DNA from: a virus
Taxonomy: Duplodnaviria > Heunggongvirae > Uroviricota > Caudoviricetes
Length of the DNA stretch: 64,000 bases
IMG/VR virus record: IMGVR_UViG_3300042154_003418
Span: 40,218 to 104,217 of that record
Reading direction: 5' to 3' (one strand)
The notes beneath the pieces are model-generated. The model saw nothing but the letters and a program-made list of their open reading frames with translations. It was not told the DNA's origin and ran no database searches. A program made the position numbers and the translations under genes. Within the stretch, counting starts at the first letter, position 1; each line of letters begins with the position of its first letter. Positions 1,264-61,150 of the stretch are shown here, piece by piece.

Positions 1264-4200
1264 ATGACAACATCAGCGGTGCTATCGCCAGGGATTAAAT
1301 CCCTGCACCTTAGCTTAGATACTCCTGTTGACCTCGTTACCGGAAAGGTCCGTCGTGACCTTTCTGGTATTCGTGTTTGGTATTCTACACAAAGCGGATT
1401 CAATCCCAATAATAGTGAAGGAACACAAGCTTTCAATGGTCTTAGTTCAGATATCACCATTAGCAACCTGCTAGAAAGTACTCAGTACTTTGTTAGATAT
1501 GCCTTTATTAGTGCTATAGACCCTACTGTTTATACAATCTCACCACAGCTATCAGCACTAACTTACGACGAAAACGTCAGCGTTTACGGAAACCTAACTA
1601 ATCCAAGTAGTATAATTCAAACAAATAATGCTGGAACTAATGGTGATTATACTGTAGCAGGCGGCGTATTTAAAGTATACAAGTACAGTACTGAAGTTAC
1701 CGGTATGGGGGTTGAGTATGCGCTAGAAAGTGGTACTATAGTAGGTGGCCTGGCAGTAAGCATTAATCCAAATACTGGAGCATACGCTGTAACTGGCCTA
1801 ACTGATGACTATGGTTCAGTTATCTTGTCTGCTACATATGACGGCGTTACTATTCAAACCACACTGTCAGTAATTAAAGCTCGTGCTGGTGTGGATGGTA
1901 CTAATGCGCAGCTATTAACAATTAATGCTGAAGGCACGGCCTTTGTGTTTAAAGATGCAGCAGCTAGCACCAGCGACACTGCCAAGCTAACGCTAATTGC
2001 TAACCTTAAAAATGTAACAGGCACAGTAACTTGGACAGCAACCGCTTTTAATGTTAATAATGTAAGTTTAGGTCCTATTACTTTTACCCAAACAGGTAAC
2101 GCAATTGATATTAGTGCCGCACAATTTAATCCACCCGCTTATGCTAACACAGTTGCTTATGTTACGGTAACTGCTAGTCGTGTACTGCTATCAGACACAG
2201 TTACACTATATCGTATTAACAACGGCACAGATCAGATAATTCTTGAGCTTACCAACGAGTCGCATACTATTCCTGCTTATTATGACGGAACTACCGTACC
2301 TGCTAGCTATATTGGTAGTGGTACAGAAATACGTGTAAAACAGGGCAATCAATATTTAACGGTTGATAACACAGTACCATACGCGCCAGGAACTTGGACA
2401 GTTACTGCTGCCAACGGTGTAAATATTACACCAGACACAACACCTGGTATTTTTAGCAGCTACATTAACTATGACACTCATAGTAACATGACAGCTGATC
2501 GTGCATACATTGACTATACTGTAACAGGTACCAGCTTAACTGGTGCGCCGTTTTCAATCTCACGTCGTCAAAGCTTTGCAAAGTCAGTGGCAGGTGAGCC
2601 AGGTGCAACAGCTACATTGGTTAGATTAACTACTACTGAGCTGGTATTTATTAAGTTCAAAGATGGTACCTACAGCAGCAATAGTGTTACCATATATGCC
2701 AATACACAAAATATTCCGACACCAGTGTTTGTGTGGAATGATGGTATTAATCCACCAGTTACAAAAGACAGTACTACAGATCCGGCAGCAAGTCAGTTTG
2801 TATTTAACCGTCCAGCGGAGCTGGGTGTTTACACAATCACAGTAAGCGTAACGGACAAAACTAACACCGCACTTGGTACAGCTGTGGATTCTATGTCTAT
2901 TGCTTTTATTGAAGAAGGCAGCGACGCTTACACATTTCTTTTCAAAGATCCTGTGGCTCAACTAAGTGCCAATAGTCTTGGAATCGTCGAAGGTGGAGTT
3001 ACCAGTGTTGTAAACCACATTATTGGTGCACAAGGTATTGCATTGTTAGTGCCTGGTGTGGACATTATATACACCGTGGATAGCACAGAAAATTGTACTG
3101 CTACATTGGGTAGTGTAACTGGAACGTGGAATCAGGAATTTACTGTTAGTGGGGCATTTTTTACTAATGCCAGCATTACTTCAGCTAGCGTAACCATCAA
3201 GTGTCAAGTTCCTGGTGGAATTTACTACTTGATGAAAACTTCGTACTCAAAAGTACGCAAAGGCGACACAGGTGCTGCCGGAGCTAATGCGGTTTTTGCA
3301 GACTTGGTTAGTGAAGCTGATGTGGTTACTGCACTAACGGATGGTACAGGATATACACTACCAACAGGCAACGCACTGCAGCTATACAGTGGTGGTAATA
3401 TTGTAACTGCTGGAGTTACCTATGGCGGCACTACAACAAAAAATGGTTTAACTTTAACCATCAACACTGCGGGTACAATTACGCTAAGCGGTGCGGCTTG
3501 GACCAGCAATCAAGAAACTTTTAACGTAACTGCAACACTTGGTGGTGTAGCATATACTGCTGCCTACACAATTGCAAAGTCACGTGCAGGTAGTGATGCT
3601 GTGTTTGTTGACCTGTTAAGCGAAGCCGAGGTAGTTAACAGCGCCGCAGACGGTACTGGGTATACTCTACCAACTGGCAACAGCATGCGCTTATTCAAAG
3701 GCGGGGTGCAGGTAACTACTGGGGTTGTATACAGCGGCGGTACTGTAAAAAATGGGTTAACACTGTCTATTGCGGGTAGCACTGGAGCAATCACACTAAG
3801 TGGTGCGGCTTGGACAAGCGACAGGGAAACTTTTACACTAACAGCTACTTTTGATAGCGTAGCGTATACCTATACCTACAAGATTACCAAGGCCAAGCAA
3901 GGTGTGCAAGGTGTAGCAGGTTCTACAGGTGCGGCAACAGCAACCGTAGCATTATATGCCAAGAATACTAGCAGCAGTACGCCACCAGCAGCATTTTCGG
4001 GGACTTTTACTTATACATTTAGTACTAGTCTGCTAAGTGGTGGCACATTAAACGGATGGGCTCAAACAGCTCCTGGTGTAGCAAACGGCGAGTATTTGTG
4101 GGTTCGTTATGCGGTAGCTAGCAGTGCAACTGCCACAGATACTATTGCCAGCACAGAGTTTAGCGGTGCTGTTGTAAGCTCAGTTGGCGGAGTTAATGGA

Positions 4201-52643: not shown

Positions 52644-52717
52644 TGGAGCGGCCAGGGGGAGTCGAACCCCACTCAGCGCAGCTTGGAAGGCTGGCGTCGC
52701 ACCTTGCGCTTGGCCGC
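52644..52717 (-). tRNA. tRNA-Gly (anticodon TCC)
   Basis: Acceptor gcggcca / tggccgc. Loop CTTCCAA. T-loop TTCGACT. Confidence 0.65.
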
Positions 52718-52721
52718 AAGA

Positions 52722-53617: not shown

Positions 53618-53704
53618 GGGTGGCAGAGGAGTCGAACCCCATCCCGGTTAAGAGAACCTGGTTTTCAAGGCCAGTCGCAGGACCAACCCCGCTGCATTAC
53701 CACC
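53618..53704 (-). tRNA. tRNA-Ser (anticodon TGA), type II with long variable arm
   Basis: Acceptor ggtggta / tgccacc. Loop CTTGAAA. Long variable arm. T-loop TTCGACT. Confidence 0.7.
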
Positions 53705-54471: not shown

Positions 54472-54852
54472 TGCCAGCTTATTCTGTTACGAGGGAAGCC
54501 GAGCGAGAAACCCTAAGCAGTTTTTAAGCTGCTAGTGCGTACGTTTGATCGTTTGCGTTTATTTTTGTTTTGTGTCTGCGGCCAGGTAGAGCGTCTTTTT
54601 GTGCTATATGCACAACGACTACACTTTGCCCCCAACCCTACGGCTTCTACATTGCCGAGTTGTCTACTTTGCTACTCTTAGCCCGGTCGATCCTGTGTCA
54701 GGCCCATCAAAAGCATACTACTAGCATATAAGCTAAAAGAGCCGATCCTTCCAACCGCTGTCGGCCACCCTTTGGGTAGGGTAATATACTTATGGTGGAC
54801 CTGGCGGGCACTGCCCCCGCGTGTCGAACTCTTTTGGGTCTGCTTCATACAA

Positions 54853-54940
54853 CCATATTTTAGCACACTAACGGACATGCGTCGTAACCACTTTCTAAGC
54901 CTGTGCACAGGCAGCGGGCTTCTAGTATGCTAAAATATGG
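54853..54940. repeat. 13-bp perfect inverted repeat enclosing 62 nt, abutting the 3' end of the 54938 tRNA
   Basis: ccatattttagca ... tgctaaaatatgg. Confidence 0.6.
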
Positions 54941-55891: not shown

Positions 55892-56485
55892 TCATTTTAC
55901 TAAAGGCCTATTGTCTAGTTCTACGGCAATATCTAAAAATATCTTATCACTATTTATTCTGTGAATGTACGCATGGTGTGTAGGACATAAATATACTAAG
56001 TTAGATAGGTCATTATTATACCTATTCTCATCTATATGATGTACGTCTAGTATTAGGTTTTCTTCACATGAACAGCATTTAATTTTAAGATCGTTGTCTT
56101 TATAAAATCTATTTAAATACTCTACGTAGCTATAGCTTCCGTCTTTCCTGTTTTTTGCCCCTTGAGTATGAGCAAAAAACTTATTACCACAGTTATAAGA
56201 GCATGTAGTCGGCTCTTTACCAGAAGATAAAAACTCAAATTCATTGTTACACTGTGGGCAAACTTTACTAATTAATTTAGCAGGCTCTTTGCCGTTAGCT
56301 GTAAAGTGAGAAGTACTAATATTGTGTAAAAGACAATAGTCTTTTATCATCTTACCGTACCTGTAGTTTTTGGAATAACCTAATGCTTGTGCAACTATTA
56401 CGGCAGCGTGAGCGTTAGATATTAGTTCTAGTAGTTCTCCAGATTTATGGCTATCTTCTAAAACTTTTAAAAATGTTGTTGACAT
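55892..56485 (-). CDS. HNH homing endonuclease
   Basis: C-terminal NLVYLCPTHHAYIHR HNH motif and Cys-rich zinc-binding segments. Low-GC codon usage. Confidence 0.75.
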   Translation of the reverse strand: MSTTFLKVLEDSHKSGELLELISNAHAAVIVAQALGYSKNYRYGKMIKDYCLLHNISTSHFTANGKEPAKLISKVCPQCNNEFEFLSSGKEPTTCSYNCGNKFFAHTQGAKNRKDGSYSYVEYLNRFYKDNDLKIKCCSCEENLILDVHHIDENRYNNDLSNLVYLCPTHHAYIHRINSDKIFLDIAVELDNRPLVK

Positions 56486-57293: not shown

Positions 57294-57299
57294 AAAATG

Positions 57300-57660
57300 C
57301 TTGGAATTATGCGTTACAGAGTTTTGTCGGGCTTTCACACCCGGTGCCATACCACTTGGCGAATTTCCCAATGGGAGATAAAAGAATCGAACTTTTGATG
57401 AAACTGTAACTATCGCCAAAGCAATAATAATAAAAAACCTTAGAACAACTATTGCAGCGATTTGGTTAGATTAGAAGTCTAGAAGTAACTGCAAAAAACA
57501 CTAAAGGCTTAGAATAAGACTAGAAAAAGCAACGCGGGTATTTGTTTTTCAAACCATATTGAGAAGTAACCGCATCTAGCACTAAGTCCTATTCTAAGCC
57601 TTCGCTTAGAGCCCCACCTTTCTTACACCTGACTGGCTACAGGCTTGGGTCGTGGGTTAG
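57300..57660 (-). ncRNA. non-coding region 3' of the rsr-like gene: a T-arm/acceptor remnant (57366-57390), a 5' half-tRNA-like segment (57300-57365), and a long imperfect hairpin (57504-57602). This is the 3'-side candidate Y-RNA-like transcript.
   Basis: aaaagttcgattcttttatctccca (T-arm + 3' acceptor) is followed by gggaaattcgccaagtggtatggcacc. The aaggcttagaataagactag ... ctagcactaagtcctattctaagcctt helix is about 20 bp. No ORF longer than 60 aa. Confidence 0.35.
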
Positions 57661-57665
57661 TATTA

Positions 57666-59042
57666 TTAAAGCACTTCTGCTTCGAGGGCTTGAATGTAAT
57701 CAATCACAGCTTCGGAGAAACCAGTAATGGTTTCCCACTCAGCACTGTTGATGCCATTCTGATAAGAACCAACGTTCAGGATGTAGTTTTTGTCACGGGA
57801 CAAACGCTTGGCTTTGTGAGGTTCGAAACCTCGGCCACCTGTGTCTTGTTCATCTGTAAACACGATTACTCGGTCTACAAAATTATCATGTTCTTGGCTG
57901 GCGATATAGTCCATAGCTTGCACTAAGAAGATACCGCCACCGCCGATTTTTCGGCCGACCTCTGCACTGCGGATGTAGTCGCTGAGTGCAAAACCACGTC
58001 GATTTGGAATCAACATAGTTGCATGTTTGCGAGTACCATCATTACCGGCTGTTGCGTAGATAACTACTTCTTCGCAGATTTCTCGTGCCAAGATAGCCAG
58101 TGAACAAGCAGCATCAAGACGAGAAATCTCGCTTTTAGCGCTTATTGTTTGCCCCATAGAGCCGCTAGTGTCAACCACCAAAACTGTACGTCCTGGTAGT
58201 TTAGCTTGTGTTGACAAGCTTGCTAGCATCATGCGCTCAAGCATACCCTCAAATTGAGGGACTTGACGGGCCGCAGAAATGTACCGGAAAGGCAACACTT
58301 TTGAAGCGTCAATGGTTTTTGAGTAAGCCTCAATCTCGGACTGAGAAATACCTGCTTGAGTCATGTTACGCAAGTTACGTAAGAATGCTAGTGCACCCAA
58401 TTTGTTTTCACGCATAAGACGTGAGAATGTTTCACGCTTATCAGCGCCCGCACTTAGTTGAGTTTCCCAGGTATCTGGAGTTTCCAACTTGTCTTCAGCA
58501 ATTCGTTTGAATAGCTCGGCTTGCACAGCCGTTTGCGGTTTAGGGTGGCTCAGGAACATAACATCACGCAAGCGAATCGCTGCTGAGTTTTTGTCCCACT
58601 TGGCCAGCTGATACTCGCTGAACTTGTTAAAACAAGCAGCAAGACCACGTTTAACCTGATTGCTCAGGGCTGACTTGCCGTCTTTCCAGTAAATGCTCAG
58701 GAATTCAGACATTTCGTCTGGACGCTGAATAACACTGGTAAGGGCATTTGCTTGTAGTTTACCGTGACGTGCGAGTTCACGAACAAGCAGCAGAGGAACG
58801 TGACGAAGTTTGAACTTAGTACGAGCCTCTAGTGCTAGTGCGGCAACCCGATCAGGGTTCACACTAGCTACCACGCTTTTAATCAGTTCAGCATGGCTTT
58901 TTCCATCAACATAAAACTGGTCTTCCCACAGCATTGCTGCCAGGGTCAAGCGACGCAGTTGTCGTTCTGGATTAATAGTGCGTACTGGAGTACCAACACT
59001 GTTAACAGTCATTGAAGCGGATTTGCGATTAATCGCGGACAT
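57666..59042 (-). CDS. rsr: Ro60/Rsr-like protein (TROVE-like N-terminal region + C-terminal von Willebrand A domain)
   Basis: C-terminal vWA MIDAS motif VLVVDTSGSMG with downstream T and D residues. N-terminal LRRLTLAAMLWEDQFYVDGKS parallels the Ro60 RFLCFGSEGGTYY region. About 460 aa. Embedded among tRNA and tRNA-like genes. Confidence 0.6.
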   Translation of the reverse strand: MSAINRKSASMTVNSVGTPVRTINPERQLRRLTLAAMLWEDQFYVDGKSHAELIKSVVASVNPDRVAALALEARTKFKLRHVPLLLVRELARHGKLQANALTSVIQRPDEMSEFLSIYWKDGKSALSNQVKRGLAACFNKFSEYQLAKWDKNSAAIRLRDVMFLSHPKPQTAVQAELFKRIAEDKLETPDTWETQLSAGADKRETFSRLMRENKLGALAFLRNLRNMTQAGISQSEIEAYSKTIDASKVLPFRYISAARQVPQFEGMLERMMLASLSTQAKLPGRTVLVVDTSGSMGQTISAKSEISRLDAACSLAILAREICEEVVIYATAGNDGTRKHATMLIPNRRGFALSDYIRSAEVGRKIGGGGIFLVQAMDYIASQEHDNFVDRVIVFTDEQDTGGRGFEPHKAKRLSRDKNYILNVGSYQNGINSAEWETITGFSEAVIDYIQALEAEVL

Positions 59043-59073
59043 GGATTTTTCCTTGTAAATAAGTAAGAACTAG

Positions 59074-59120
59074 GCGAAACAGAGATTTTAGCGCTCTACC
59101 AACTGAGCTACTCGACACAC
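59074..59120 (-). ncRNA. tRNA 5'-half fragment (acceptor + intact D-arm) lacking anticodon and T arms
   Basis: The - strand reads gtgtgtcgag-ta-gctcagttggtagagcg, then diverges. Confidence 0.4.
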
Positions 59121-59125
59121 TAAAG

Positions 59126-59213
59126 TGCCAGAGGATGGACTCGAACCACCGACCTCTCGTTTAACAGACGAAGTAACTGTTTCTTTCACTATACCTAAAT
59201 TAAACACACTGGC
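59126..59213 (-). ncRNA. 88-nt tRNA-like RNA: acceptor + T-arm + GTT anticodon-like arm, with a 14-nt expansion in the D region. This is the 5'-side candidate Y-RNA-like (YrlA-type) element.
   Basis: Acceptor gccagtg / ctctggc (1 mismatch). T-arm ggtgg-TTCGAGT-ccatc. Arm ttcgt-CTGTTAA-acgag. Its 5' part is duplicated at 59330-59375. Confidence 0.4.
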
Positions 59214-59429
59214 TAAGAATCTGCGAAAGCAGTTCTTGGAATTGTTTAGCGTCTACATCGCCTAAGACGTTTGCACGGTTTAAAGTGTGTGGCTACCACA
59301 ATTTGTGTGCCACAAGGGCAGACAGCTTTAGTTATGAAGTAACTGACTTCTATCACTATAGCCAAAGTGTTTAATTTAAGTATAAATTATATCAAATATA
59401 ACTTACACTGGCAAGTTTGTATTTTTAGT

Positions 59430-61074: not shown

Positions 61075-61150
61075 TGGGCAGTCGTTACGGATTCGATCCG
61101 TTCCTACGAGTTTCACAGACTCGGGTGCTTCCACTACACTAAACGCTGCA
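61075..61150 (-). tRNA. tRNA-His (anticodon GTG), acceptor with a one-nucleotide bulge
   Basis: Anticodon stem cgagt/actcg, loop CTGTGAA. T region acggATCGAATccgt. 3' strand acgActgc pairs with gcagcgt. Confidence 0.65.

What the first reader, a model, noticed from the sequence alone, without database searches (positions are those of the whole stretch)
57300..59215. Ro60/Rsr-like (TROVE-vWA) gene inside a phage tRNA island, flanked on both sides by tRNA-like fragments: candidate phage Ro60 / Y-RNA module
The 458-aa - strand ORF at 57666-59042 has a canonical vWA MIDAS motif (VLVVDTSGSMG) at its C-terminus. Its N-terminal region is alpha-helical with a Ro60-like RLxL...YVDGKS motif. Bacterial Rsr proteins partner with Y RNAs whose effector module mimics tRNA (YrlA-type), and those RNAs are encoded next to rsr. 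Both flanks of this gene are non-coding and hold tRNA-derived but non-canonical elements. Upstream at 59074-59213 are a 5' half-tRNA and an 88-nt tRNA-like RNA with an expanded D region. Downstream at 57300-57660 are a T-arm/acceptor remnant, a 5' tRNA-like segment and a roughly 20-bp long hairpin at 57504-57602 that could serve as a Ro-binding stem. A Ro60-like RNP in a T5-like lytic phage, next to about 24 phage tRNAs, would suggest a phage-encoded RNA quality-control or tRNA-processing device. Alternatively it could be a decoy against host tRNA-targeting defences.
Basis: partly seen in the sequence, partly recalled or inferred. Interest (0 to 1): 0.8.

Follow-up and report, generated by a model that had tools for sequence, protein, structure and literature searches.

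The report
Phage Ro60 gene with Y-RNA array
A T5-like phage carries, inside its tRNA gene cluster, a gene for a Ro60-type ring-shaped RNA-binding protein, flanked by five small structured RNAs that probably bind it; this kind of phage module is already known, but these RNAs belong to a widespread subclass that current databases miss.

Summary
ORF 57666-59042(-) is a full-length Ro60/Rsr orthologue. It passes the Pfam TROVE cut-off and matches the Thermus phage phiLo Ro60 crystal structure over its whole length. Its AlphaFold model hits only Ro60 structures.

Both flanks are non-coding and hold five paralogous structured RNAs on the gene's strand (A, B upstream; C, D, E downstream). All share one module: lower helix, bulged U, conserved internal loop, 7-bp upper helix, then UUACUUC.
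- B and E carry circularly permuted tRNA-like heads.
- B is a divergent YrlA (Rfam 27 bits, cut-off 69).

Helices covary across dozens of related phage loci. The same RNAs sit upstream of related TROVE genes in about 55 of 80 bacterial genomes.

Phage Ro60/Y-RNA modules were described in 2014 and studied biochemically in 2025, so the kind is known. The new points are the divergent binding motif, which replaces GNCGAA, the five-member array, and the fact that tRNA finders and Rfam mislabel or miss these RNAs.

Binding, expression and function were not tested. The likeliest role is a Ro60/Y-RNA particle that redirects host RNA decay or counters a host defence.

The parts
59386..59414 (-). Sigma-70-like promoter, TTGCCA-17 nt-TATAAT with an upstream TG. 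It lies between tRNA-Met and RNA A.
   Evidence: 11 of 12 hexamer matches. The sequence is conserved in relatives (alignment A4). Function is inferred only.
59195..59380 (-). RNA A: about 185 nt, closed by a 20-bp terminal helix (59359-59380 with 59195-59215). It carries the shared module (UAGUGAUAGAAGUCAG-UUACUUC at 59336-59358) and a roughly 105-nt insert.
   Evidence: 100% of cells paired in 8 sequences, 6 pairs with compensatory changes, slid controls 20-44%. Motif.
59060..59197 (-). RNA B, a divergent YrlA-type Y RNA. In 5' to 3' order:
- lower helix UAGGUA/UACUUA (59192-59197 with 59060-59065)
- bulged U 59191; AG/CU pairs
- 5' loop UGAAA
- upper helix GAAACAG/CUGUUUC (59177-59183 with 59076-59082)
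- UUACUUC 59170-59176
- anticodon-like arm 59156-59172
- variable loop AGGUC
- T arm 59134-59150
- closed acceptor hairpin 59111-59133
- D arm 59093-59108
- linker GCUAAAAUCU
- 3' loop GCCUAGUU

The lower helix ends 5 nt before the AAGGAA ribosome-binding site of the TROVE gene.
   Evidence: Rfam YrlA 27.2 bits, local E 8e-4. Own model R1 scores it 139 bits and finds full-length homologues in about 33 of 38 loci. In A7, 98.5% of cells are paired and 91 are compensatory against 23 in shuffles. G15:C48 / A15:U48 covariation.
57666..59042 (-). Ro60/Rsr orthologue, 458 aa: HEAT-repeat TROVE ring plus a vWA domain with MIDAS motif DTSGS.
   Evidence: Pfam TROVE 50.9 bits against a cut-off of 23. 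phrog_850, E 8e-40. PDB 9l5y/9kop, E 3e-19 over residues 24-454. AF2 pLDDT 83. The top 13 Foldseek hits are all Ro60, TM 0.73-0.54.
57613..57656 (-). C0: a hairpin inside a hairpin, starting 10 nt after the stop codon. Outer helix CCCAC/GUGGG; inner helix CCUG/CAGG; conserved loop UAG(C/U)CAG. It lacks the shared module. Role unknown.
   Evidence: Alignment A2. RNAalifold gives 9 pairs, 2 with compensatory changes.
57506..57600 (-). RNA C, a long hairpin like YrlB/Yrn2.
- 19-bp lower helix; internal loop
- upper helix GAUGCGG/CCGCGUU (57570-57576 with 57531-57537)
- apical loop starting UUACUUC (57563-57569)

A U6 run follows at 57493-57498. [quoted passage not shown]
   Evidence: (18 such modules from 17 loci): 85.7% of cells paired against 41-55% for slid controls; 121 compensatory cells against 45±5; 0 of 500 shuffles as high.
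57438..57507 (-). RNA D, a minimal module.
- lower helix CCUU/AAGG
- upper helix UUUGCAG/CUGCAAU
- UUACUUC 57482-57488
- insert: a single anticodon-arm-like hairpin, UAGA-CUUCUAA-UCUA

A U run follows at 57432-57437.
   Evidence: The upper helix covaries in relatives (GCAG/CUGC, AUCGG/CCGAU, AACGG/CCGUU; alignment A2). R1 gives a weak hit of 15.2 bits.
57298..57423 (-). RNA E, a second permuted tRNA-like Y RNA.
- lower helix UGCUU/AAGCA; GG/CC
- upper helix GUUACAG/CUGUAAC (57404-57410 with 57313-57319)
- degenerate motif UUUCAUC
- T arm AAAAG-UUCGAUU-CUUUU
- acceptor-like hairpin UCCC-AUU-GGGA
- D arm GCC-AAGUGGUAU-GGC
- anticodon-like arm CGGG..CCCG

It ends 5 nt before tRNA-Trp.
   Evidence: homologues in L003-L011 have compensatory changes in the T stem, acceptor hairpin and upper helix. 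L011 carries a perfect UUACUUC. R1 scores it 21.5 bits.

Best explanation
This is a phage copy of the Ro60/Y-RNA ribonucleoprotein system. The 458-aa protein is a Ro60/Rsr orthologue. The five RNAs around it (A, B, C, D, E) are its cognate Y RNAs.

**Proposed mechanism (inferred).**
- The RNAs are transcribed on the same strand as the surrounding tRNA island and are probably cut out of the same precursors.
- Each RNA offers the same 'handle': lower helix, bulged U, conserved internal loop, 7-bp upper helix, then UUACUUC. This handle sits where YrlA has its Ro60-binding stem.
- Each RNA offers a different 'head': two permuted tRNA mimics (B, E), a hairpin with a pyrimidine-rich loop (C), a lone anticodon-arm-like hairpin (D) and a large insert (A).
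- The ring protein binds the handle. The heads recruit or occupy host factors that recognise tRNA-like shapes or Y RNAs, above all PNPase.
- The phage thereby redirects or dampens host RNA decay and RNA surveillance during infection, or blocks a host defence.

**Shown here:** the protein family and fold; the RNA structures and their conservation; the linkage of these RNAs to TROVE genes in phages and bacteria.

**Inferred only:** expression and processing, Ro60 binding to the handle, and the effector and biological role.
For: **Protein.**
- TROVE domain above the Pfam cut-off.
- Full-length match to phiLo Ro60.
- Model matches only Ro60 structures.
- At least 7741 homologues, all carrying PF05731.

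**RNAs.**
- B matches Rfam YrlA at E 8e-4. Its outer stem and the following loop align with YrlA's cggCga-AUGCuu.
- Covariation supports the helices of B, of the shared module and of A.
- The tRNA tertiary signature is kept: U8, A14, G18G19, the T loop and G15:C48 / A15:U48.

**Linkage to TROVE genes.**
- Model R1 finds B-type RNAs on the TROVE strand in about 33 of 38 viral loci.
- It gives 75 hits, all upstream and on the same strand, in about 55 of 80 bacterial loci.
- The motif occurs 149 times in sense and 18 times in antisense.
- In an independent motif scan, only the 4 hits next to a TROVE gene are confirmed by the model.

**Precedent.**
- YrlA lies next to Ro60 in 254 bacterial species and 22 phages. 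[quoted passage not shown]
- phiLo Ro60 binds two upstream Y-like RNAs and host PNPase, and attenuates PNPase (PMC12135203).
- Ro60-like gp130 of phage Bas63 lies next to that phage's tRNA genes and counters the Ppl defence (PMC11482910).
Against: - There are no expression, processing or binding data for this locus.
- B is far below Rfam's YrlA cut-off (27 against 69 bits) and lacks the GNCGAA motif thought to contact Ro60.
- That the shared module is the Ro60 site rests only on its position and conservation.
- Adjacent modules overlap by 4-6 nt (A/B, C/D), so not all structures can form on one transcript.
- B's lower helix abuts the ribosome-binding site, and C is followed by a U run. Some elements could therefore act in cis.
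- The anticodon-like arm is thermodynamically weak and not uniform.
- Homology between this protein and Bas63 gp130 was not tested.
Confidence: 0.85

Rival explanations
1. The flanking structures are cis-acting leader and trailer elements of the TROVE mRNA, such as autoregulatory operators, attenuators, terminators or RNase processing sites. They are not trans-acting Y RNAs.
For: - B's lower helix ends 5 nt before the AAGGAA ribosome-binding site.
- In L003 and L005, B is cleanly deleted but the helix next to the ribosome-binding site is kept.
- C and D are each followed by U runs.
- CUCUAAGC / GCUUAGA / UCUAAGCC offers a mutually exclusive pairing of the kind attenuators use.
Against: - The same RNAs occur in 1-4 tandem copies up to 2.4 kb upstream of bacterial TROVE genes.
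- In phages they occur on either side of the gene, and even between distant tRNA genes.
- They keep full tRNA tertiary signatures, which a leader has no need for.
- Homologous YrlA RNAs are known stable Ro60-bound RNAs (PMC4201824).
- The two roles are not exclusive.
Confidence: 0.07
2. The RNAs are tRNA mimics that work without Ro60. They would act as decoys or sponges for host anticodon nucleases, tRNA-modifying enzymes or other tRNA-targeting defences. Their linkage to the TROVE gene would reflect only shared residence in tRNA islands.
For: - The heads mimic tRNA elbows.
- In many members they also mimic anticodon loops of the form YU-NNN-RA. All 8 clean 7-nt loops have U33 and R37, and the 'anticodons' vary among orthologues.
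- 23 of 36 related loci lie inside tRNA islands.
Against: - The RNAs follow the TROVE gene into bacterial chromosomes and into phage loci that have no tRNA genes nearby (L021-L031, L035-L037).
- The most conserved part is the non-tRNA handle shared by all five RNAs, not the heads.
Confidence: 0.05
3. The flanks are decaying tRNA pseudogenes and chance hairpins left in a tRNA island. The protein has no dedicated RNA partner encoded nearby.
For: ARAGORN calls none of them in the window. Rfam scores are below cut-off.
Against: There are compensatory changes in every helix across loci whose proteins are only 40-65% identical. Strand bias and linkage to the gene are strict.
Confidence: 0.01

Closest known systems
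Thermus phage phiLo Ro60 with Yrl1/Yrl2 (Hu et al. 2025, PMC12135203; PDB 9KOP, 9L5Y)
   Same: - A phage-encoded Ro60.
- It is the best sequence match (E 3e-19, full length) and the best structural match (TM 0.73) to the window protein.
- Y-like RNAs are encoded next to the gene.
- It gives the only biochemical model so far: the RNP binds host PNPase and attenuates it.
   Different: - Only 23% identity.
- The phiLo RNAs were picked by their CGAA motif and are simple stem-bulge-stem RNAs, both upstream.
- Here the motif is CRG-UUACUUC, there are five RNAs on both sides, two have tRNA-like heads, and the locus sits in a tRNA island.
Bacterial Rsr with YrlA/YrlB (S. Typhimurium, M. smegmatis; Chen et al. 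2014, PMC4201824; Rfam RF02553)
   Same: - The RNA is encoded next to the Ro60 gene.
- A terminal stem carries a tRNA-like head in the order T arm, closed acceptor, D arm, with Levitt-pair covariation.
- A companion long-hairpin RNA has a pyrimidine-rich loop.
- Several RNAs come from one precursor.
- The phage motif aligns column for column with YrlA's outer stem and loop.
   Different: - All members of this subclass score 27-56 bits, below the 69-bit cut-off.
- GNCGAA is replaced.
- YrlA's 7-bp middle stem is absent, and a short anticodon-like hairpin sits 5' of the T arm.
- There is an extra conserved lower helix and internal loop.
- The locus has no link to rtcBA or RtcR.
Escherichia phage Bas63 gp130 (PhageMaP preprint, PMC11482910)
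   Same: A Ro60-like protein encoded directly beside the phage's tRNA genes. The authors suspect that some of those 'tRNAs' are Y RNAs. It is the only genetic phenotype known for a phage Ro60: it counters the Ppl defence.
   Different: The similarity reported there is structural. I did not retrieve gp130, so neither sequence homology nor presence of this RNA module was tested.
Deinococcus radiodurans Rsr with Yrn1/Yrn2 (RYPER complex with PNPase)
   Same: Same protein fold (2NVO, TM 0.68). Several Y RNAs lie upstream of the gene. According to PMC4201824, Yrn1 has a T arm and a possible anticodon arm.
   Different: The Ro-binding helix of Yrn1 resembles the metazoan GGUCCGA helix, which is not seen here. 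The arm order differs.
Vertebrate Y RNAs (Rfam RF00019)
   Same: Several paralogous small RNAs share one Ro60-binding handle and differ in their heads. Y1 and Y3 contain the strings CAGUUAC and UUGUUC.
   Different: There is no Rfam Y_RNA hit at E up to 10. Profiles of the phage modules give no match to mouse Y1, mouse Y3 or human Y4. I treat the shared strings as chance.

Membership tests
Ro60/Rsr (TROVE) proteins | TROVE domain (Pfam PF05731) at or above the gathering score | tested here: met
   50.9 bits against a cut-off of 23, E 1.9e-13. All listed homologues carry PF05731.
Ro60/Rsr (TROVE) proteins | C-terminal vWA domain with a MIDAS motif (DxSxS) | tested here: met
   DTSGS lies at residues 291-295 and is invariant in alignments A8 and A9. 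The vWA Pfam models fall below their cut-offs (VWA_2 21.8/27; vWA_Ro60 17.4/27.7). The fold search nevertheless matches vWA domains, and the full-length alignment to phiLo Ro60 covers this region.
Ro60/Rsr (TROVE) proteins | Overall fold of solved Ro60 structures (HEAT-repeat ring closed by the vWA domain) | tested here: met
   AF2 pLDDT 83, pTM 0.76. The top 13 Foldseek PDB hits are all Ro60: 9kop 0.73, 2nvo 0.68, 2i91 0.61. Ring closure was not measured directly.
Ro60/Rsr (TROVE) proteins | Binds Y RNA on the outer surface and misfolded RNA ends in the central hole | not testable with these tools
   Needs EMSA, co-immunoprecipitation or a complex structure.
YrlA (Rfam RF02553; Chen et al. 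2014) | Covariance-model score at or above Rfam's gathering score (69 bits) | tested here: not met
   Window RNA B scores 27.2 bits. Relatives in phages and bacteria score 32-56 bits.
YrlA (Rfam RF02553; Chen et al. 2014) | Encoded next to (within about 2 kb of) a Ro60 gene | tested here: met
   B ends 18 nt upstream of the start codon on the same strand. The same linkage holds in about 33 of 38 viral loci and about 55 of 80 bacterial loci.
YrlA (Rfam RF02553; Chen et al. 2014) | tRNA-like module in the order T arm, closed acceptor stem, D arm, with conserved T and D loops and 15:48 covariation | tested here: met
   G15:C48 in 19 sequences; A15:U48 in 4, plus 2 more depending on the alignment register.
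YrlA (Rfam RF02553; Chen et al. 2014) | GNCGAAN0-1G motif near the 5' end (the proposed Ro60 contact) | tested here: not met
   The aligned position reads AACAGUUAC in the window and ACGGUUAC or GCAGUUAC in relatives. The conserved motif is RG-UUACUUC.
YrlA (Rfam RF02553; Chen et al. 2014) | 5' and 3' ends pair in a stem that carries the protein-binding site | tested here: met
   The 7-bp helix GAAACAG/CUGUUUC has compensatory changes at all 7 pairs across 28 RNAs. Protein binding itself was not tested.
[quoted passage not shown] | Long hairpin encoded beside the Ro60 gene and the YrlA gene | tested here: met
   RNA C, 57506-57600; covariation. This class has no sequence model, so the match is descriptive.
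Canonical tRNA | Cloverleaf in the standard order, detected by tRNA finders | tested here: not met
   ARAGORN calls nothing at B or E. Rfam tRNA scores B 23.5 bits against a cut-off of 29. The arm order is permuted and the acceptor is closed by a loop.
Metazoan-type Y RNA (Rfam RF00019) | Match to the Y_RNA covariance model or to the GGUCCGA helix | tested here: not met
   No hit at E up to 10 in either flank. nhmmer profiles give no match to mouse Y1, mouse Y3 or human Y4.

The most novel reading that the evidence does not exclude
The UUACUUC-type RNAs would be an unannotated Y-RNA class: the cognate ligands of a very large TROVE subfamily found in phages, Acidobacteriota and other bacteria.

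In phage tRNA islands the class would have expanded into arrays that mount different tRNA-like or anticodon-arm-like heads on one Ro60 handle. Such arrays would serve as a set of adaptors or decoys in phage-host conflict. Possible uses are sponging PNPase, anticodon nucleases or other tRNA-sensing defences, in line with Bas63 gp130 countering Ppl.
Probability: 0.25. Interest if true: 0.7.

Novelty: new variant of a known kind. Interest (0 to 1): 0.45.

Why it matters
Work on phage Ro60 has only just begun: one structure with biochemistry, and one genetic hint of a counter-defence role. This locus and its relatives give that work a concrete RNA target set.
- A conserved protein-binding handle can be mutated.
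- A range of heads can be swapped.
- A covariance model recovers these RNAs next to TROVE genes in most of the 118 related phage and bacterial loci searched, where Rfam's cut-off misses them.

It also corrects annotation. tRNA finders call the 5' two-thirds of some of these RNAs tRNAs, so tRNA counts for phages may be inflated.

It does not change the picture of what Ro60 systems are.

Tried and rejected
- **Nucleotide matches to deposited phages.** Megablast of the locus and of 25 kb of the window found nothing. The phage has no close cultured relative.
- **TATAGT as a promoter.** The TATAGT before RNAs A and B is not a -10 box. In distant relatives the same position reads GUGGCGUAG or AUGGUGUAG and lies inside a hairpin.
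- **Local hairpin in RNA A.** The hairpin CUGC-UUUC-GCAG was set aside in favour of the shared-module pairing, because all modules share the 3' loop consensus. This point stays uncertain.
- **UUGGCGA/UCGCCAA pairing in E.** Rejected in favour of the D arm and the module helices.
- **Deep homology with vertebrate Y1/Y3.** These share the strings CAGUUAC and UUGUUC, with sequences verified in PMC6060611, but profile searches give no hit at all.
- **Motif-only scan of viral contigs.** 13 of 17 exact matches are chance, with no model hit and no TROVE gene. This is consistent with the shortness of the pattern.
- **Anticodon-arm mimicry as a firm feature.** Downgraded to tentative, because the arm is weak and its register varies.
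- **Bas63 gp130.** Guessing its accession failed, so homology was not tested.
- **Structure prediction from locus translations.** It was redone with database homologues.
Full report
**The protein**

The ORF at 57666-59042(-) encodes 458 aa.
- It passes Pfam's TROVE cut-off (50.9 against 23 bits). It has sub-threshold vWA matches, including the Ro60-specific vWA model.
- It matches phrog_850 'RNA-binding protein' end to end, E 8e-40.
- It aligns over residues 24-454 with PDB 9L5Y/9KOP, E 3e-19. That entry is the Ro60 of Thermus phage phiLo (PMC12135203).
- An AlphaFold2 model built on 27 homologues (pLDDT 83, pTM 0.76) hits only Ro60 structures in its first 13 Foldseek matches: phiLo TM 0.73, D. 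radiodurans Rsr 0.68, Xenopus and human Ro60 0.54-0.61. After those come isolated vWA domains.
- The MIDAS residues DTSGS are invariant in relatives.

The family is very large: at least 7741 proteins at E≤1e-10, all with PF05731, some named '60 kDa SS-A/Ro ribonucleoprotein'.

**The phage**

The window encodes tail fibre proteins, ribonucleotide reductase, an SbcC-like nuclease subunit, a family A DNA polymerase, helicases and an HNH endonuclease. The polymerase is 50% identical to those of vibriophages such as pVp-1, which I know to be T5-like. No deposited phage matches at the nucleotide level. The gene lies in a same-strand island of 22 tRNA genes plus a permuted tmRNA.

**Upstream flank**

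- Rfam's YrlA model matches 59073-59183(-) at 27.2 bits, local E 8e-4, against a cut-off of 69.
- Read directly, B has a 7-bp helix formed by its two ends, GAAACAG/CUGUUUC.
- After that come UUACUUC, a short anticodon-like hairpin, the variable loop AGGUC, a canonical T arm, an acceptor stem closed by a loop, and a canonical D arm.
- This is a circularly permuted tRNA.

It is closed by a 20-bp helix. All cells are paired in 8 sequences, and 6 pairs show compensatory changes. A strong sigma-70-like promoter precedes it.

**Downstream flank**

Four elements follow the stop codon:
- C0, a small conserved hairpin.
- D, a minimal RNA with a single anticodon-arm-like hairpin.
- E, a second permuted tRNA-like RNA in the order T arm, acceptor hairpin, D arm, anticodon-like arm.

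**The shared module**

CAGTTACTTC or a one-mismatch variant occurs four times on the minus strand, and all four copies flank the gene. Comparing 98 motif instances from 38 IMG/VR loci gives a common architecture:
- a lower helix,
- a bulged U,
- two pairs, R-Y and G-C, of which the first covaries A-U with G-C,
- a 5' loop YGNWR,
- a 7-bp upper helix ending CRG,
- UUACUUC,
- a variable insert,
- the 3' strand of the upper helix,
- a 3' loop YRNUURUU,
- the 3' strand of the lower helix.

A, B, C, D and E all fit this architecture. E carries a degenerate UUUCAUC, which is a perfect UUACUUC in L011.

On 18 short-insert modules from 17 loci, 85.7% of cells are paired against 41-55% when partners are slid. 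There are 121 compensatory cells against 45±5 in shuffles, and 0 of 500 shuffles reach the observed value.

A profile of the 5' motif built without the window places four of its five best window hits in these flanks, on the gene's strand.

**Conservation of B**

A covariance model built from ten B-type RNAs finds full-length matches in about 33 of 38 viral loci. All are on the TROVE strand, and they lie upstream or downstream of the gene.
- On 28 of them, 98.5% of cells are paired, with 91 compensatory cells against 23±3.6 in shuffles. That alignment was fitted to the model, which favours the structure.
- U8, A14, G18G19 and the T loop are kept.
- Position 15 covaries with position 48: G:C in 19 sequences, A:U in 4 to 6.
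- The anticodon-like arm is weaker. Only 8 of 28 fold cleanly as 5 bp plus a 7-nt loop, although all 8 have U33 and R37. I treat this arm as tentative.

**Linkage to TROVE genes beyond these phages**

- *Cultured phages.* Xanthomonas phage 10KY502B has three tandem B-type RNAs upstream of its TROVE gene, and one of them is annotated tRNA-Thr. Caulobacter phage CcrColossus has several, and one hit overlaps an annotated tRNA-Gln. ARAGORN likewise calls the 5' part of B-type RNAs tRNAs in L017, L018 and L019.
- *Independent motif scan.* A motif-only scan of viral contigs gave 17 exact matches. Only the four next to a TROVE gene are confirmed by the model.
- *Bacteria.* In bacterial genomes, mostly Acidobacteriota MAGs but also Alphaproteobacteria, Patescibacteria and Bacillota, the model gives 75 hits at E≤1e-4 in about 55 of 80 TROVE loci. 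All are upstream and on the gene's strand, with up to four in tandem. The motif is 149 sense to 18 antisense.

The RNA class therefore belongs to a TROVE subfamily and is not specific to phages.

**Relation to YrlA**

In Rfam's alignment the YrlA outer stem and the loop that follows it (cggCga-AUGCuu) line up with the upper helix and UUACUU (ACGACGG-UUACUU). The T, acceptor and D order is the same. However:
- every member tested scores 27-56 bits, below the 69-bit cut-off;
- the GNCGAA motif that Chen et al. propose as the Ro60 contact is replaced;
- YrlA's middle stem is missing;
- there is an extra conserved lower helix and internal loop.

I therefore file these RNAs as a divergent YrlA-like subclass that probably works like YrlA, not as members of RF02553.

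**What is known**

- Chen et al. 2014 (PMC4201824) found YrlA-like RNAs beside Ro60 genes in 254 bacterial species and 22 phages. [quoted passage not shown]
- Hu et al. 2025 (PMC12135203) showed that phiLo Ro60 binds two upstream Y-like RNAs and host PNPase, and attenuates PNPase.
- A 2024 preprint (PMC11482910) found that Ro60-like gp130 of phage Bas63, which lies beside that phage's tRNA genes, counters the Ppl defence. The authors guessed that some of those 'tRNAs' are Y RNAs.
- A jumbo-phage survey noted TROVE proteins with tRNA-like partners (PMC7824862).

The kind of system is thus established. This locus is a clear, RNA-rich example with a variant RNA class.

**Mechanism**

The best-supported reading is that the protein binds the shared handle and the heads engage host factors.
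- PNPase is the only partner with experimental precedent in a phage.
- tRNA-modifying or tRNA-processing enzymes are plausible partners for B and E.
- The net effect would be control of host RNA decay or surveillance, or counter-defence.

None of this was tested here. Cis-regulatory roles are possible in addition: B's helix lies beside the ribosome-binding site, and C has an attenuator-like alternative pairing and a U run.

**Verdict**

- Novelty is modest: a new variant of a known kind.
- Interest is 0.45. The main value lies in the defined handle, the model that recovers the class, and the annotation fix.

Noticed in passing
window 54524-54854 (-): A permuted (two-piece) tmRNA gene sits in the phage tRNA island. 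Rfam tmRNA_permuted scores it 91.3 bits against a cut-off of 47. ARAGORN misses it in the window but calls permuted tmRNAs at the syntenic place in relatives (L001, L007-L010, L012, L013; tag peptides such as ANDTQFALAA).
   Followed up: partly
L020 47-368: A related viral contig carries a bacterial class A RNase P RNA (148.8 bits against a cut-off of 100) directly before about 25 tRNA genes and the TROVE gene. A phage-encoded RNase P RNA next to Y RNAs with acceptor-like stems may be relevant to their processing.
   Followed up: no
L040 2795-2862 (Xanthomonas phage 10KY502B); L042 2173-2240 (CcrColossus); L017 2791-2858; L018 4382-4458; L019 4269-4340: Features annotated as tRNAs, or called as tRNAs by ARAGORN, overlap B-type Y RNAs. 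In most cases they cover the 5' two-thirds of the RNA. They are probably miscalls.
   Followed up: partly
window 57602-57609, 57593-57600 and 57506-57513 (-): CUCUAAGC, GCUUAGA and UCUAAGCC can form two mutually exclusive helices: a short upstream hairpin, or the base of long hairpin C. C is followed by a U6 run. All three segments are almost invariant in close relatives. This looks like an attenuator or antiterminator.
   Followed up: no
window 57613-57656 (-): Conserved hairpin C0 lies just after the TROVE stop codon, with an invariant loop UAG(C/U)CAG. It lacks the shared module, and its role is unknown.
   Followed up: partly
L003 and L005 about 2985-3000; L012 2916-2974; L014 2915-2978: RNA B is gained, lost or swapped among close relatives. 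It is cleanly deleted in L003 and L005, truncated in L012, and replaced in L014 by a minimal D-like module with a compensated helix (GAAACGG/CCGUUUC).
   Followed up: partly
L004 5899-6003, L005 5818-5922, L007 5783-5887, L008 4850-4954, L011 6309-6414, L012 5386-5490: Relatives carry a sixth module-bearing RNA 1-2 kb downstream. In five of the six loci it lies between tRNA-Asn and tRNA-Gln; in L012 it lies before tRNA-Gln and ARAGORN calls no tRNA-Asn there. In the window those two tRNA genes are only 7 nt apart, so this RNA is absent.
   Followed up: no
window 61079-61147 (-), 53619-53704 (-), 52647-52718 (-): Further tRNA-like signals that ARAGORN does not call: Rfam tRNA at 37 bits (above its cut-off), and tRNA-Sec-like matches at 32.9 and 26.2 bits (below cut-off).
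   Followed up: no
window 55892-56485 (-): An HNH endonuclease ORF of 197 aa lies among the tRNA genes (PHROG HNH families, E about 3e-10).
   Followed up: no
L064-L143 (bacterial genome contigs): The closest cellular homologues of this phage Ro60 (48-54% identity) lie on large contigs of Acidobacteriota (Terriglobia) MAGs, with tandem arrays of the same RNA class upstream. I did not examine whether these are prophages or chromosomal rsr loci.
   Followed up: partly
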